This document shows, piece by piece, positions 16,789 through 23,899 of a DNA stretch of 64,000 nt. The position numbers were made by a program, and so were the translations under genes. Where the stretch lies: NCBI GenBank assembly GCA_965116795.1, contig OZ220716.1, positions 2,383,833 to 2,447,832 of the forward strand, in the 5' to 3' direction. How positions within the stretch are numbered: position 1 is the first letter of the stretch; every line of letters starts with the position of its first letter. The notes below the pieces were generated by a model. It searched no databases. It was not told the origin of the DNA and saw nothing but the letters and a program-made list of their open reading frames with translations. Origin of the DNA: Gammaproteobacteria bacterium (GTDB taxonomy: Bacteria; Pseudomonadota; Gammaproteobacteria; JAJFKG01).

Positions 16789-16859
16789 TATACTCTTCGC
16801 GTTTTAAATTTATGCTTTGTTGCCTGCGCCTTGCCTACATTCAAAATGCTTTGAGTATA
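16789..16859 (-). mobile_element. Internally deleted 71-bp ERIC-like MITE
   Basis: Ends TATACTC...GAGTATA; both arms match the copy at 44021-44181. Confidence 0.85.
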
Positions 16860-18406
16860 TTACTTTCACGCATAGTGTGATTGTTATCCTGATATAATTT
16901 AACTAAGGCACGCTTGTCAATTTTTCTATTGGCTGTTTTAGGTAATGTCGTTTCAATGATGATCTCAACTAGCTGTTCATGTGGTTGCAATGCCCGTTTG
17001 CAAAACACCGTTAATCGTTCAGTAGTGATGTTATGATTGGATAATGACACAAACAACACGATGGCTTGTCCATTTGGGGGATCGGCTACTCCTACTGCAG
17101 CAACTTCGATAATATCCTGGTGTTGACTGACTATCATTTCAATTTCTCTTGGACTGACTTTCATACCCCTTGATTTAATCACATCATCTAACCTGCCATG
17201 AAAATAAAAATAGCCATCGTTATCCATCCAGCCCAGATCACCGGTAAATAATAGGTATTCATTAGGTAATCGTCCCGGTTTTAATTTCTGGCAACTTTCT
17301 TCAGGCTTATTCCAATACCCCTGCATCACTGTTTGTCCACGTACTACGATTTCACCTAACTGATTGGGTCCGCAGCGCTGCCCAGCATCATCAACAATCC
17401 ACATTTGCGTGTTAGGAATGGGGATCCCAATGCTCGTTGGTTTTTTATCCACATGATCAGCTGGTAAATACGTACAACGTTTGCATTCTGTTAATCCATA
17501 CATTGAAAAGAGCTTGGCGTGTGGCAGTAATGTGTTGATCGCATCAATATAGCTTGGCATCAATTGAGCGCCGGTATTAGTCACATAACGAATACTGGTT
17601 AAGTCGTAGGTTTTCAGTTGATTAAACTTGACAAGTAACAGCACCATGCTCGGCACCAGTGGCAAGCCAGTTACGTTATATTGTTCAATGTGCTTTAACA
17701 ATTGGCTCGGCAATAACAAATCTTTTTCTAAGATGACTGTCCCAGTGACAGCTGTCATCATGATCAGTTGATACAACCCATAATCAAATGATAATGGCAA
17801 TGCACAGATAACCGTATCATTATCTGAGTGATTCAAATAATGGTTAATCGATTCGGCAGCTGCTAGCATATTACGGTGAGTTAACATCACCCCTTTAGGT
17901 TCACCCGTTGAACCAGAGGTATAAATAATTGATGCCAAGTCAATATCAAGATGCTGTGTGTTTAGGTTGAGATCAGAAGAATGGGATTGAGATTGTTCTA
18001 CTATCTCACTCGTTAACCAATGTAATTCATGTTTAAGTTTGGAAAATGGGTGGCTGTGTTGTGAACAGTTATCCGTAATGACACAACTAGCATGCAGATC
18101 ATTGAGGATATATGCTATTTTTTCTTGAGGCTGTTGATGATCAATAATGCTGACAATGGCATCTGCTAGTAATGCCCCCCAAAAACAAATGACTGTTTCA
18201 ACTGTATTACCCAGTGCCAATACAATGTGGTCAGCATGGTGTATCCCAAGATGCTTTAAATAATTGGCAACACTGTTGGCTATATTAAGCAGTTCTGCGT
18301 ACGTTAAACTGCCTTTATCTGTCACTAAGGCCAATTTTTCTGGCTGTTGTTCGGCTGACCGAACCAAATAATCGGTTAAACTATTAATCATATATCCATT
18401 TTCCAT
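16841..18406 (-). CDS. Adenylate-forming ligase, VinN-like (candidate Asp/beta-amino acid:ACP ligase)
   Basis: YTSGSTGEPKG, LSFDYGLYQ, MYGLTECKR, TGDLG, NRKID. Confidence 0.88.
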   Translation of the reverse strand: MENGYMINSLTDYLVRSAEQQPEKLALVTDKGSLTYAELLNIANSVANYLKHLGIHHADHIVLALGNTVETVICFWGALLADAIVSIIDHQQPQEKIAYILNDLHASCVITDNCSQHSHPFSKLKHELHWLTSEIVEQSQSHSSDLNLNTQHLDIDLASIIYTSGSTGEPKGVMLTHRNMLAAAESINHYLNHSDNDTVICALPLSFDYGLYQLIMMTAVTGTVILEKDLLLPSQLLKHIEQYNVTGLPLVPSMVLLLVKFNQLKTYDLTSIRYVTNTGAQLMPSYIDAINTLLPHAKLFSMYGLTECKRCTYLPADHVDKKPTSIGIPIPNTQMWIVDDAGQRCGPNQLGEIVVRGQTVMQGYWNKPEESCQKLKPGRLPNEYLLFTGDLGWMDNDGYFYFHGRLDDVIKSRGMKVSPREIEMIVSQHQDIIEVAAVGVADPPNGQAIVLFVSLSNHNITTERLTVFCKRALQPHEQLVEIIIETTLPKTANRKIDKRALVKLYQDNNHTMRESNILKAF

Positions 18407-19691
18407 ACTGTTTTTTTGAACCGTGATGATTCAACAATATCATCGTAATGAATACGATAGACACCATGCTCATAATGACGGTTAACAGCCTGGAAAAATC
18501 AATAATTGAATAATGATATGTCGCCACATACATCGCTAACCCAATTTGGGCAAGCAGAAACGCTATATTTAATAGTAAACTTTTGATAGCAAATCCGGTT
18601 TGCTCCAAGATCGAAATGACACTGACTAAGGGACAATATAATAGATACGACCAAGATACATAGTGAAAATAATCGTGAATAACTGTTTGTATGTGTTTAT
18701 CTTGAGTGAGTAGTTGGCTAATTTGATCTGATAATAATAGTGTTGTGGTAACAATTGGAATATAAACAATACATGTCAATATTACGGTATGGGTGATAAT
18801 ATGGTATTTTTCTGTTGCGTGATGACTACGATTGCTATTGATCCCAGCTGCAATCCCTAATGCCACTGCTGGTAATAGAATAATACTCTGAATACGGTAA
18901 GCGATACCAAAACCGGTGAGTGCATCTTGATTAATCGCGGATAAATAATGAATTACTAAATAAATACCGATGGGTAGTGCAATATAGATCAAGACTATAG
19001 GTAAACCGATTGTTCGACACAGTTGATAACCCCTTTCCCAATAAGCGTACCCAACATCATCTTTCTGTTGGGTAGTGAGTAATATCATGATGATTGACAC
19101 TATCAAACCTAGCGTGTACGCAATCGCATTGCCAACAATAATGGCATATATCCCCATCTCAAACTGATAAAAAATAATGTGAGTAAACAATATAGCAAGC
19201 AAGCTGGTTATCACAATACTCATGCAAGCTAACACACTGTTACCCAGAGCAAATAATGCAGCATTACAGATTGAGTTGGCTGATACAATGCTATAACTTA
19301 ATGAGTACAGTGCAGCAAATTTGGTGAACGTATCATAGTGGATTGTTGATACGTTAAATGGGTTTAATTTAACAGTGGCCATAACCATTAACAATAGTGA
19401 GATCAGTAGAAATGGCAAACTGTAATATGCAGATAGCACAGTACAGTGTTTAATTGGATATAATTTGCTGTGCTTCCCAATACCTGTAATGCAACAGACT
19501 CGACCTGATTCTAGCAACCCCAATATTAAATGACTGATCGGCAAATAACAGGTTAATATATACCAATTAGACACGTTAGCATGACTAACAGTGGTCGCAT
19601 TGGTGATCACACTGACTAATACCGCAATGCTCGATATCAAAATAGGCACAGCAATTGTGACAGTTTGTTTGGTTAGCCTAACATCGAACAT
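18384..19691 (-). CDS. MATE-family efflux transporter
   Basis: ~12 hydrophobic segments; GFGIAYRIQSIILLP; probable start MFDVRL overlaps the upstream gene. Confidence 0.75.
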   Translation of the reverse strand: MFDVRLTKQTVTIAVPILISSIAVLVSVITNATTVSHANVSNWYILTCYLPISHLILGLLESGRVCCITGIGKHSKLYPIKHCTVLSAYYSLPFLLISLLLMVMATVKLNPFNVSTIHYDTFTKFAALYSLSYSIVSANSICNAALFALGNSVLACMSIVITSLLAILFTHIIFYQFEMGIYAIIVGNAIAYTLGLIVSIIMILLTTQQKDDVGYAYWERGYQLCRTIGLPIVLIYIALPIGIYLVIHYLSAINQDALTGFGIAYRIQSIILLPAVALGIAAGINSNRSHHATEKYHIITHTVILTCIVYIPIVTTTLLLSDQISQLLTQDKHIQTVIHDYFHYVSWSYLLYCPLVSVISILEQTGFAIKSLLLNIAFLLAQIGLAMYVATYHYSIIDFSRLLTVIMSMVSIVFITMILLNHHGSKKQYGKWIYD

Positions 19692-22320: not shown

Positions 22321-22583
22321 TCTTCCTCTGCTAACGTCAATTGGCTATTCACATACTTGACAACAGTTTCTACTGTGTCTAAGTCATTCGCATCCAATGA
22401 ATCCGGATCCACAATAAAGTTGTCTATATTGTCTTCCAATGACATTAAGAAGGATAATGTGCTCATTGAATCTAGTCCTAAATCATCTTTTAACCTAGAT
22501 TGCAGCGAAATCGCGTGTGTCTCATCAAGATTAAGTGTCGCCATAATTGACTGACAGACAATATCAAATACGTTATTGTGCAT
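22317..22583 (-). CDS. Acyl/aminoacyl carrier protein
   Basis: 88 aa, acidic, DLGLDSM phosphopantetheine site; AAGGAA RBS. Confidence 0.92.
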   Translation of the reverse strand: MHNNVFDIVCQSIMATLNLDETHAISLQSRLKDDLGLDSMSTLSFLMSLEDNIDNFIVDPDSLDANDLDTVETVVKYVNSQLTLAEEE

Positions 22584-22597
22584 GTTATTATTCCTTA

Positions 22598-23899
22598 CTA
22601 ACTATTAAATATATTACGTTGTTTGCCGTTTATATCATCAAGCGAATCGCGCTGACGTATTACGTAAGCCTGCTGTTGATACACCATCACTTCGGCAGGA
22701 AAGCCATGACTTAGAAAATACACTGGAGATGCTGTTGGCCCATAAGCACCCGATTGATGAATACCGATCAAATCGCCGACTTGTGTTTTAGGCAAATTAA
22801 TCGACTTAGCAATTAAATCATTAGGTGTACACAATGGCCCAGTAATATCGTATTGTTGTGTTACCGTTTGTTGACCGGATAGATTATCAATTGGGAAATT
22901 GCGTTTAACTACACCACCAATCCCCACTGCTGCCATATGACAATGGCTACCACCATCGGTGATTAAAAAGGTTTTTCCTTTGGATTGTTTAATATCGTGC
23001 ACAGTGGTGATGAAACAGCCTGATTCTGCGACTAAGTAACGCCCACTTTCCATAATGATGCGTGTATTGGGATATTGGGTTACATATGATTGAATAATCT
23101 CTTGGAATGCTGTGCCTGATAAGTTAATTGGTTGCTCATTGTCAAAATAGGCAACGCCAATACCACCTCCAATATCAATACACTCAAATTGCAGATCAAA
23201 CGTGTTTTGCAGTTCACTTGCCATTGTTAAGATGTGTTGTGTATTGTCTATAACCGTGTTTATATTTAGTATGCGTGTACCGTTATACACATGGATGCCG
23301 ATTAAGTTAATGTGGGATAATGATGTGAACTGGTTAAACTGAGCAAATACATCTGTTTGATCAATCCCAAATTGAGAGGGTTTGCCACCCATTTTTAACA
23401 GTGCATCTTTTGAGATAAAATCAGGGTTGATACGCACGATCACGTTAGCAGTGACATCAAGCTGCTTGGCTAACTGGTTAATTCTGTTAAGCTCGGCAAA
23501 TGATTCGAATACGACCGCATAAATACCGTTTTGTAAACAATTAATGATGTCTCGATCATGTTTATACGGCCCAACAAAAATGATGTTATGCCCAGGCATA
23601 CCAATGCGCAGCACCGTATCCAATTCGGCAGCAGAACACACTTCAGTCGCTGCACCGCAATCGACTAACAGTTTTACAATCGAGCGATTAGGATTCGCTT
23701 TTAATGAATAAAAAATGTCAACATGTTGACCACAAAAGTGGGTTAATCGTCCATAAGCAAGAGTAATATGATCAGCATCGTACACATAAACAGGAGTACC
23801 GCAGCCATCAACAATCTCCTTAATCGGTATGCCTTGGATATGATCTAAGGTAGCGGTATTGTTCATCTTGTTAGTCTCAGGGTACATGCCCGTTGACAA
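22598..23899 (-). CDS. Fold-type III PLP-dependent decarboxylase (LysA-like; BtrK/VinO type by context)
   Basis: YSLKANPN PLP Lys, GGGIG, ESGRYL, GPLCTPND, GAYG; adjacent to ACP; real start may be MNNTAT. Confidence 0.88.
   Translation of the reverse strand: MSTGMYPETNKMNNTATLDHIQGIPIKEIVDGCGTPVYVYDADHITLAYGRLTHFCGQHVDIFYSLKANPNRSIVKLLVDCGAATEVCSAAELDTVLRIGMPGHNIIFVGPYKHDRDIINCLQNGIYAVVFESFAELNRINQLAKQLDVTANVIVRINPDFISKDALLKMGGKPSQFGIDQTDVFAQFNQFTSLSHINLIGIHVYNGTRILNINTVIDNTQHILTMASELQNTFDLQFECIDIGGGIGVAYFDNEQPINLSGTAFQEIIQSYVTQYPNTRIIMESGRYLVAESGCFITTVHDIKQSKGKTFLITDGGSHCHMAAVGIGGVVKRNFPIDNLSGQQTVTQQYDITGPLCTPNDLIAKSINLPKTQVGDLIGIHQSGAYGPTASPVYFLSHGFPAEVMVYQQQAYVIRQRDSLDDINGKQRNIFNS

What the first reader, a model, noticed from the sequence alone, without database searches (positions are those of the whole stretch)
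16841..23899. Predicted beta-alanyl-ACP starter module (VinN/VinL/VinO-like) followed by dehydrogenases
Seen: the ligase has SFDYG and TECKR. Known (from memory of the VinN structure): an adjacent Lys-Arg pair binds the free carboxylate of a dicarboxylic amino acid, and VinO-type enzymes decarboxylate the ACP-bound product. Inference: Asp is loaded via its beta-carboxyl and decarboxylated to beta-alanyl-ACP; no glutamate mutase is present to supply methyl-Asp. The ACAD pair may then give an aminoacryloyl (enamide) unit. Macrolactam-type starter logic without any PKS is unusual.
Basis: partly seen in the sequence, partly recalled or inferred. Interest (0 to 1): 0.7.

Follow-up and report, generated by a model that had tools for sequence, protein, structure and literature searches.

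The report
Dehydro-beta-alanine peptide operon without NRPS
The flagged genes are the front half of a 15-gene operon that likely turns aspartate into beta-alanine and then an unsaturated "enamide" unit on a carrier protein, chemistry already known from Burkholderia and Streptomyces antibiotics, but here paired with a predicted glycine-activating enzyme and a transglutaminase-like enzyme to make a product nobody has identified.

Summary
The genes and motifs are real. The ligase keeps the VinN pocket (D208, T278, K309, R310), and the decarboxylase is BtrK-like; a separate lysA lies elsewhere. It is reconstituted in vitro, with no PKS or C domain, for AFC-BC11, and bolQ deletion in bolagladin gives the saturated analogue. 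The window's five-gene block matches the olenamidonin oleJ-N block in order and size. The "ACAD pair" is one full enzyme plus a half-size partner, predicted to form a heterodimer (0.92 vs best control 0.03). This copy has Asp at the catalytic Glu. The same layout recurs in ten other loci, mostly uncultured Coxiellaceae-like bacteria plus one Ralstonia; one has an adenylation-transglutaminase fusion. No product is described in the papers searched. Verdict: new variant of a known kind, interest 0.42.

The parts
22598..23899 (-). BtrK/AfcP/OleJ-like PLP decarboxylase (433 aa), predicted iso-aspartyl-ACP decarboxylase
   Evidence: PDB best BtrK E 1e-82; TIGR03099 358 bits, below cut-off 478; HVYNGT/CTPND where the genome's own lysA has HIGSQ/CETSD
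22317..22583 (-). Sole carrier protein (88 aa, DSMS)
   Evidence: PF00550; genome has one PPTase, at C1:1780000
21424..22320 (-). KAS III-fold protein lacking the catalytic Cys (Thr117), OleL-like in size; role unknown
   Evidence: AF2 model pLDDT 80, Foldseek hits OleA/FabH/ChlB3; Cys aligns to Thr; no Cys at that position in 14 of 14 aligned rows
20790..21458 (-). Half-size ACAD-like partner subunit (C-terminal helical domain only), OleM/EtmK-like in size
   Evidence: homologues of 194-234 aa, invariant R134 and G193; weak ACAD C-terminal matches; predicted complex with the full ACAD 0.92 vs best control 0.03
19678..20793 (-). Full acyl-CoA dehydrogenase family enzyme (BolQ/AfcE/OleN role), with Asp at the catalytic Glu position
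   Evidence: PF00441; EYMDGT in DNA; Glu in 11 of 11 homologues; Asp also in contigs of runs X2 and X4
18384..19847 (-). MATE exporter
   Evidence: PF01554; related loci have RND, MFS or ABC transporters instead or in addition
16841..18406 (-). VinN/AfcQ-type adenylation enzyme, predicted to load L-Asp by its beta-carboxyl
16789..16862 (.). About 74-nt palindromic genome-wide repeat in the only long gap of the operon; it supplies the ligase's last codons and stop
   Evidence: 52 distinct places in the genome at E<=1e-4
15203..16768 (-). Stand-alone adenylation enzyme A2, predicted glycine-specific
   Evidence: pocket DLHSLCLIAK vs AlmE DLHSFCLIAK, with both AlmE Gly determinants (L206, C274)
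14257..15216 (-). KAS III-like acyltransferase b (Cys, PHNVN His, HCF..D)
   Evidence: C114, H237, H268, D273 invariant in 12 of 12 rows; FabH Asn replaced by His
12651..14264 (-). Stand-alone adenylation enzyme A1, amino acid not assignable (pocket DFQTIGVIAK)
   Evidence: best PDB core matches 8K4R, IdnL7 (6AKD), AlmE (4OXI); pocket
11702..12679 (-). Alpha/beta hydrolase (GFSAG), candidate release or trimming enzyme
   Evidence: weak Abhydrolase hits below cut-off; motif
10752..11705 (-). Transglutaminase-like enzyme with C106-H143-D160, candidate amide-forming transacylase
   Evidence: PF01841; model pLDDT 92 with weak transglutaminase-fold hits; fused to an A domain in L009
9847..10767 (-). 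KAS III-like acyltransferase a (OleH/AfcL role)
   Evidence: PF08541; KCAS, PHNVN, HCFNAD
9222..9890 (-). GNAT acetyltransferase (capping or self-protection)
   Evidence: PF00583
8671..9225 (-). Signal-peptide-bearing beta-rich protein that travels with the cluster; function unknown
   Evidence: homologues beside the cluster in L006-L010, L014, L016; no Pfam hit

Best explanation
This 15-gene operon is predicted to be a carrier-protein assembly line without condensation domains: the VinN-type ligase likely loads L-aspartate through its side-chain carboxyl, the BtrK-type enzyme likely decarboxylates it to beta-alanyl-carrier, the amine is likely acylated, and a predicted heterodimer of the full and half-size dehydrogenases would then make the dehydro-beta-alanine (enamide) unit of a small exported peptide. 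I commit to glycine from A2 as the most likely cap. The KAS III-like Cys enzymes and the transglutaminase-like enzyme would act as transacylases that add the A1 residue and possibly an acyl-CoA and release the chain. The hydrolase and GNAT would trim, cap or protect, and the MATE would export. Shown here: genes, order, pocket and active-site residues, conservation of the layout. Inferred from characterised homologous pathways: Asp loading, decarboxylation, desaturation after N-acylation (about 0.75 together). Weakly inferred: order and identity of the later steps (about 0.35).
For: VinN pocket conserved; the Thr at VinN S299 is also in BolO. KR is kept in 9 of 15 cluster ligases aligned, HR in 4, FR in 1, neither in 1. 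AfcQ/AfcK/AfcP were reconstituted with L-Asp, and KAS III-like AfcL (Cys/His/Asp) is a peptidyl transferase. A bolQ deletion gives the dihydro product. The olenamidonin cluster, whose product contains dehydro-beta-alanine, has decarboxylase 427, ACP 92, hypothetical 296, ACAD 234 and ACAD 387 aa in the order of the window's 433, 88, 298, 222 and 371 aa. Predicted ACAD heterodimer 0.92 in three runs vs best control 0.03; partner pLDDT at least 83; contacts agree at least 95%; the mark was reached by 116 of 157 solved and 2 of 215 mismatched pairs. A2 matches AlmE's Gly pocket at 9 of 10 positions. VinM shows that an A enzyme can aminoacylate a beta-aminoacyl-ACP. Papain-like/transglutaminase Cys-His-Asp enzymes act as thiotemplated transacylases in closthioamide, butirosin and andrimid. 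The layout recurs in 8 of 18 distinct loci, plus L027 and L037/L038, with an A-transglutaminase fusion in L009.
Against: No biochemistry and no product. The full ACAD has Asp where 11 of 11 homologues have the catalytic Glu. A1 and A2 lack the VinM-type C/A/T residues (F/G/A and L/C/A), so amine acylation by them is only an analogy. The transglutaminase His is missing in 8 of 8 distant loci aligned, though present in 10 of 10 close homologues, so a catalytic role is not secure for the family. The complex score may reflect likeness to solved ACAD dimers. The decarboxylase's nearest structure, BtrK, acts on glutamyl-ACP.
Confidence: 0.65

Rival explanations
1. Same front module, but the amine is capped by a cellular acyl-CoA through a KAS III-like enzyme, as proposed for OleH/AutS and BolM/BolP. 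The A1/A2 amino acids go on the carboxyl side, giving an N-acyl-dehydro-beta-alanyl lipopeptide. This is a variant of the later steps, counted within the best explanation's uncertainty.
For: OleH is proposed to ligate acyl-CoAs to the DHA-ACP. AfcL transfers the chain to Lys-S-CoA of unknown origin, which a stand-alone A enzyme could supply. All characterised clusters read here give N-acyl products.
Against: No fatty acyl-AMP ligase, citrate synthase or desaturase in the operon. A minimal family member has one active KAS III, one A enzyme and one transglutaminase (L027, L038).
Confidence: 0.3
2. In this genome the pathway stops at the saturated beta-alanine product, because the dehydrogenase's catalytic Glu is Asp.
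For: EYMDGT vs Glu in 11 of 11 homologues; the change is not an assembly error (0 differences in spanning contigs of X2 and X4). bolQ loss still yields the dihydro compound.
Against: Both dehydrogenase genes are intact and keep family-invariant residues. Asp is still a carboxylate. Recalled: Glu-to-Asp MCAD keeps some activity.
Confidence: 0.13
3. The ligase loads glutamate through its gamma-carboxyl; decarboxylation gives 4-aminobutyryl-ACP (butirosin logic) and desaturation a 4-aminocrotonyl unit.
For: Best structural match of the decarboxylase is BtrK, named L-glutamyl-[BtrI ACP] decarboxylase.
Against: BolN is also BtrK-like yet works in the Asp route. Butirosin loads Glu with an ATP-grasp enzyme. 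The ligase has the VinN pocket, and the characterised members read here take Asp or methyl-Asp.
Confidence: 0.09
4. The operon decorates the cell envelope (lipid A, polysaccharide or protein) with glycyl or beta-alanyl groups, like AlmEFG or the exosortase-associated ligase/decarboxylase pair, rather than making a secreted metabolite.
For: Top NCBIfam hits are TIGR03098 and TIGR03099; A2 is AlmE-like; a secreted protein travels with the cluster.
Against: Both TIGR scores are far below cut-off (394/592; 358/478). No AlmG-type acyltransferase, amidotransferase or glycan gene is in the operon. Small-molecule exporters (MATE, RND, MFS, ABC) recur at these loci. The dehydrogenase/KAS III block matches metabolite clusters.
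Confidence: 0.08
5. Housekeeping genes: lysA plus a fatty acyl-CoA ligase and beta-oxidation dehydrogenases.
For: Family-level hits to lysA and long-chain CoA ligases.
Against: A separate lysA with HIGSQ/CETSD lies at C1:964019 and a separate CoA ligase at C1:1726336. The cluster is patchy: 0 of 399 other genomes of the class had the ACAD at E<=1e-50.
Confidence: 0.02

Closest known systems
AFC-BC11 (afc) pathway, Burkholderia cepacia complex (PMC12186527; main text parts 1-4 of 5 read, supplement unreadable)
   Same: VinN-type Asp ligase, one carrier, PLP decarboxylase, ACAD, three KAS III-like proteins (two with Cys, one with Thr); no C domain, no PKS.
   Different: afc has a fatty acyl-AMP ligase, citrate synthase, methyltransferase and desaturases. 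The window has none of these; it has two amino-acid A enzymes, a transglutaminase-like enzyme, a hydrolase and a GNAT.
Olenamidonin/autucedine (ole/aut) dehydro-beta-alanine block, and its Etm homologues (PMC11204786; passages and supplement table)
   Same: Decarboxylase-ACP-hypothetical-short ACAD-full ACAD in the same order and near-identical sizes, plus a roughly 309-aa KAS III.
   Different: ole loads the carrier with an ATP-grasp enzyme and hands the unit to a multimodular NRPS. The enteromycin and autucedine papers were not held.
Bolagladin BolO/BolC/BolN/BolQ/BolM/BolP (PMC7756342, parts 1-3 of 5 and supplement part 4; PMC7756705, passages)
   Same: Asp to beta-Ala to dehydro-beta-alanine on a free carrier with KAS III homologues; Thr at the VinN S299 position.
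   Different: Feeds a tetramodular NRPS with a citrate-derived fatty acid; its KAS III proteins have Ser and Thr for Cys; BolO has FR where the window has KR.
Vicenistatin/fluvirucin starter module VinN/VinL/VinO/VinM/VinK (PMC11284099, PMC11253843; passages)
   Same: Ligase pocket, carrier-bound decarboxylation, a second A enzyme beside it.
   Different: No PKS, no annotated VinK, no glutamate mutase; A1/A2 lack the VinM-type residues; desaturation is not part of the macrolactam module.
Closthioamide CtaD/E/F/G (PMC7183216; passages)
   Same: Carrier-bound Asp to beta-Ala, and a Cys-His-Asp transacylase in place of a C domain.
   Different: ATP-grasp loader, two carriers, thioamidation, no dehydrogenase or KAS III role.

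Membership tests
VinN-type dicarboxylic beta-amino acid adenylation enzymes | D230, aromatic 231, S/T299, K330-R331 and VinN-length beta13-beta14 loop | tested here: met
   D208, Y209, T278, K309, R310; no gap against VinN
VinN-type dicarboxylic beta-amino acid adenylation enzymes | Activates L-Asp/methyl-Asp by the beta-carboxyl and loads its carrier | not testable with these tools
   needs enzyme assay
Macrolactam starter module (VinK-VinO) | Type I PKS that receives the unit | tested here: not met
   three PF00109 matches in the genome, all single FabF-, FabH- or thiolase-like proteins
Macrolactam starter module (VinK-VinO) | VinM-type A enzyme with C217/A285/T318 | tested here: not met
   A1 F/G/A, A2 L/C/A
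Dehydro-beta-alanine type II NRPS cassette (bol/afc/ole) | Asp loader + free carrier + BtrK-like decarboxylase + ACAD + KAS III-like protein in one cluster | tested here: met
   against gene lists
Dehydro-beta-alanine type II NRPS cassette (bol/afc/ole) | KAS III-like acyltransferase with Cys/His/Asp rather than Cys/His/Asn | tested here: met
   Cys, His, His and Asp invariant in 12 of 12; FabH Asn is His; triad geometry not modelled
Dehydro-beta-alanine type II NRPS cassette (bol/afc/ole) | ACAD with catalytic Glu | tested here: inconclusive
   Asp in the window copy, Glu in 11 of 11 homologues
Dehydro-beta-alanine type II NRPS cassette (bol/afc/ole) | Direct sequence orthology to Afc/Bol/Ole/Etm proteins | not tested
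   sequences not available; a proxy ole-like locus L028 matches the decarboxylase (45%), KAS III (30%), ACAD (30%) and the Cys-less KAS III (prob 96.7), the short ACAD only at E 0.049
afc / bol lipopeptide clusters | Fatty acyl ligase, citrate synthase, O-methyltransferase, desaturases | tested here: not met
   none among the 15 genes
AlmE-type glycine adenylation enzymes (A2) | D247, L248, C316 pocket | tested here: met
   D205, L206, C274
Exosortase-associated ligase/decarboxylase (TIGR03098/TIGR03099) | Score above curated cut-off | tested here: not met
   393.5 vs 592.35; 357.8 vs 478.45
Diaminopimelate decarboxylase (lysA) | TIGR01048 cut-off and HIGSQ motif | tested here: not met
   278 vs 297.9; HVYNGT, while the genome's other copy has HIGSQ
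Transglutaminase-like transacylases | Cys-His-Asp triad | tested here: met
   C106-H143-D160 in the window and 10 of 10 close homologues; His absent in 8 of 8 distant loci aligned

The most novel reading that the evidence does not exclude
A new class of small non-lipid enamide peptides, made on one carrier with no condensation domain, no PKS and no fatty-acid ligase. A glycine-activating enzyme, a transglutaminase-like enzyme (fused to it in one genome) and KAS III-like transacylases form the amide bonds, and a dehydrogenase built from one full and one half-size subunit makes the enamide. The pathway is shared by uncultured Coxiellaceae-like bacteria and a Ralstonia.
Probability: 0.35. Interest if true: 0.65.

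Novelty: new variant of a known kind. Interest (0 to 1): 0.42.

Why it matters
Dehydro-beta-alanine natural products are rare and include a potent, light-switchable antifungal (AFC-BC11). This operon points to an unexplored branch of that family whose product cannot be read from the genes. It would add an adenylation-transglutaminase pair to the short list of condensation-domain-free amide-forming machines. It also offers a testable reason why these clusters carry a 'short ACAD': a non-catalytic half subunit that completes the dimer. The first three steps are not new.

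Tried and rejected
Single-protein locus scan with the ligase found nothing; the KAS III alignment worked. KAS III b in 60 relatives: one weak match (G045, E 3e-6), a different cluster with an AurF-like gene. A search for longer or fused forms of the short ACAD found none among 7993 candidates, which is weak evidence. Profile comparison of short with full ACAD was not significant. TAL-effector rows are summed-repeat artefacts. The promoter/terminator scan was at chance level (58 vs 69; 12 vs 10). 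No RNA holder listed. The distant A-T-C-A-T-reductase NRPS at C1:2207127 was rejected as acceptor: it starts with its own A domain and lies about 190 kb away. L030 (B. cenocepacia) was fetched as a possible afc locus but lacks the fatty-acid genes and is another cassette. Cispentacin AmcH/AmcFG were considered and rejected: the ligase keeps the amine-binding Asp, and the KS proteins are KAS III type. Trees of decarboxylases and A enzymes gave no starred placement for the window decarboxylase, A1 or A2. The Atlas did not hold the Cys-less KAS III; for a transglutaminase homologue it returned only unnamed PF01841 clusters. Literature searches found no paper on a cluster combining this cassette with a transglutaminase. 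The library lacks most subscription journals; the enteromycin and autucedine papers and the AFC supplement could not be read and may bear on the short ACAD and the Cys-less KAS III.

Full report
Observation. The flagged interval holds seven minus-strand genes: a PLP decarboxylase, a carrier protein, a KAS III-fold protein, a 222-aa and a 371-aa dehydrogenase-like protein, a MATE and an adenylating ligase. They are the front of a 15-gene run from 23899 to 8671; twelve junctions overlap and two have gaps of 14 and 72 nt. The rear half encodes two more stand-alone adenylation enzymes (A2, A1), two KAS III-like proteins, an alpha/beta hydrolase, a transglutaminase-like protein, a GNAT and a secreted protein. 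The genome is one 2.45-Mb contig, 41.2% GC; the cluster is 38.2% GC, in the lowest 11% of equal windows.

Ligase and decarboxylase. The ligase core matches VinN best among solved structures (E 2e-32). VinN D230, F231, S299, K330 and R331 (roles from PMC11253843, passages) are D208, Y209, T278, K309 and R310. BolO also has Thr at 299 (PMC7756342 supplement). The decarboxylase matches BtrK at E 1e-82 and DAP decarboxylases at 6e-49 or worse. The genome has a separate lysA with the HIGSQ motif and one PPTase. No glutamate mutase was found, no type I PKS, and a single C domain, in an unrelated NRPS about 190 kb away.

Precedent. In AFC-BC11, VinN-type AfcQ activates L-Asp and not beta-Ala and loads the sole carrier AfcK, AfcP decarboxylates, and KAS III-like AfcL (Cys/His/Asp) takes the chain on its Cys and passes it to Lys-S-CoA; there is no C domain or PKS (PMC12186527, parts 1-4 of 5; supplement unreadable). 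The authors argue that the dehydrogenase acts after N-acylation, because a free enamine would hydrolyse. In bolagladin, deleting bolQ replaces dehydro-beta-alanine by beta-alanine, and deleting bolN is not rescued by beta-alanine (PMC7756342, parts 1-3 of 5; PMC7756705, passages). The olenamidonin cluster lists OleJ decarboxylase 427 aa, OleK ACP 92, OleL hypothetical 296, OleM ACAD 234 and OleN ACAD 387, with a 309-aa KAS III and an ATP-grasp loader; OleJ, K and M are nearest to EtmH, I and K (PMC11204786, passages and supplement table). The window has the same order with 433, 88, 298, 222 and 371 aa. That the Etm product enteromycin carboxamide joins a glycine-derived unit to 3-aminoacrylamide is recalled; that paper and the autucedine paper were not held.

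Dehydrogenases. The short protein and its homologues (194-234 aa) keep only the C-terminal helical part, with invariant R134 and G193. The best ACAD match of its profile is Tcur3481 (E 9e-4), recalled as a subunit of a heteromeric ACAD. Folded with the full enzyme and FAD it scored 0.92 in three runs against a best control of 0.03, with partner pLDDT at least 83 and contact agreement at least 95%. The mark was reached by 116 of 157 solved and 2 of 215 mismatched pairs, and the pass may come from likeness to solved ACAD dimers. The interface includes residues 134-147 and 189-207 of the short chain. Against my reading: the full enzyme has Asp at the position that aligns with the catalytic Glu, where 11 of 11 homologues have Glu. 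Contigs of runs X2 and X4 span the codon with no difference (either may be the window's source).

Rear half. A2's pocket reads DLHSLCLIAK against DLHSFCLIAK for AlmE (4OXI), with both residues shown to enforce glycine (AlmE function PMC12930378, passages). A1's pocket, DFQTIGVIAK, is closest to that of L038, which lies beside an Asp/Glu racemase; I cannot assign it. A1's nearest structures are 8K4R (recalled as VinM), IdnL7 and AlmE, and A2's top hits include the same three. Neither has the VinM-type C/A/T residues, so amine acylation as by VinM (PMC11284099, passages) is an analogy only. The two active KAS III-like proteins keep Cys, PHNVN and HCF..D, invariant in 12 of 12 rows, with His at the FabH Asn. 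The third has the fold but Thr for Cys. The transglutaminase-like protein has C106-H143-D160, as do 10 of 10 close homologues, while 8 of 8 distant loci aligned lack the His; L027 keeps it. Its fold matches transglutaminase-like structures only weakly (best E 5e-4). Such enzymes are thiotemplated transacylases in closthioamide, butirosin and andrimid (PMC7183216, passages).

Distribution. Searches gave 22 loci, 18 distinct after dropping four duplicates (L018, L020, L022, L025). Eight of 18 carry the dehydrogenase pair, VinN-type ligase, KAS III, A enzyme and transglutaminase (L005, L007-L010, L016, L017, L023; L005 and L023 are cut at the front). Five are rear-part fragments (L006, L014, L019, L021, L024). 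Three are related clusters with P450 and hydrolase and no transglutaminase hit (L011, L013, L026). Two are actinobacterial NRPS loci (L012, L015). L009 fuses the A enzyme to the transglutaminase (798 aa). The same order occurs in G061 (L037/L038) and on the Ralstonia pseudosolanacearum UW386 megaplasmid (L027). KAS III a matched 29 plasmid records, of which I opened five. The wider KAS III family has 234 representatives at E<=1e-30. The cluster is rare: 0 of 399 other genomes of the class had the ACAD at E<=1e-50, with one genome unscored, and neither of the two family relatives had KAS III b. Two earlier AI notes on sister loci reached a similar reading; they are not independent evidence.

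Mechanism. Most likely: Asp-S-ACP, then beta-Ala-S-ACP, then N-acylation (glycine from A2 preferred; acyl-CoA by a KAS III is the main alternative), then desaturation by the heterodimeric dehydrogenase, then transacylation and release by the KAS III-like and transglutaminase-like enzymes, then export. The first part rests on tested residues plus reconstituted homologous pathways; the later order is inferred. It works like afc and ole, and it meets the gene-content test for the dehydro-beta-alanine cassette. It is not a macrolactam starter module and not an afc or bol lipopeptide cluster.

Verdict. What is new is the rear half and the unknown product; searches found no paper on this combination. 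New variant of a known kind; interest 0.42.

Noticed in passing
window 16789-16862: About 74-nt palindromic repeat with TATACTC/GAGTATA ends, at 52 places in the genome, many with longer middles (MITE- or REP-like). It sits in the operon's only long gap and provides the ligase's stop codon.
   Followed up: partly
window 24169-24254 and about 24690-24773: A second dispersed repeat (20 places in the genome) flanks the small GIY-YIG gene 24291-24710 on both sides in inverted orientation, just upstream of the operon.
   Followed up: partly
window 8671-9225: Signal-peptide, beta-rich protein without Pfam match that accompanies the cluster at either end in seven other loci (L006-L010, L014, L016); possible binding or resistance protein.
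   Followed up: partly
L011, L013, L026, L031: A sister cluster type with two or three carriers, four or five KAS III-like genes, HR in place of KR in the ligase, a P450 (fused to an A domain in L011 and L013) and a hydrolase; also on Rahnella plasmids, and KAS III hits on Tritonibacter, Agrobacterium and Gemmobacter plasmids may be the same type. No product found.
   Followed up: partly
L029 (Bacillus mycoides plasmid): Large cluster with six KAS III-like genes, two ACADs, a decarboxylase, three carriers, a BtrH-like protein and extra uvrA/uvrB copies, hinting at a DNA-damaging product.
   Followed up: no
L037/L038 and L006 (genome G061): One genome holds two clusters of this family; one has an Asp/Glu racemase between the A enzyme and the transglutaminase.
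   Followed up: partly
L017:12373-13288: The second KAS III-like gene is split into two ORFs.
   Followed up: no
L008: Labelled Verrucomicrobia, but the cluster and flanks resemble the gammaproteobacterial loci; possible mis-binning.
   Followed up: no
window 28406-33484 and 33741-36320: Two large orphan proteins without Pfam hits: 1692 aa with Ser-Pro repeats and three internal repeats, and 859 aa Ser-rich. The genome has many other very large repeat proteins.
   Followed up: no
G000:C1:2207127-2213480: Stand-alone A-T-C-A-T-reductase NRPS (2117 aa), unrelated to this operon.
   Followed up: partly
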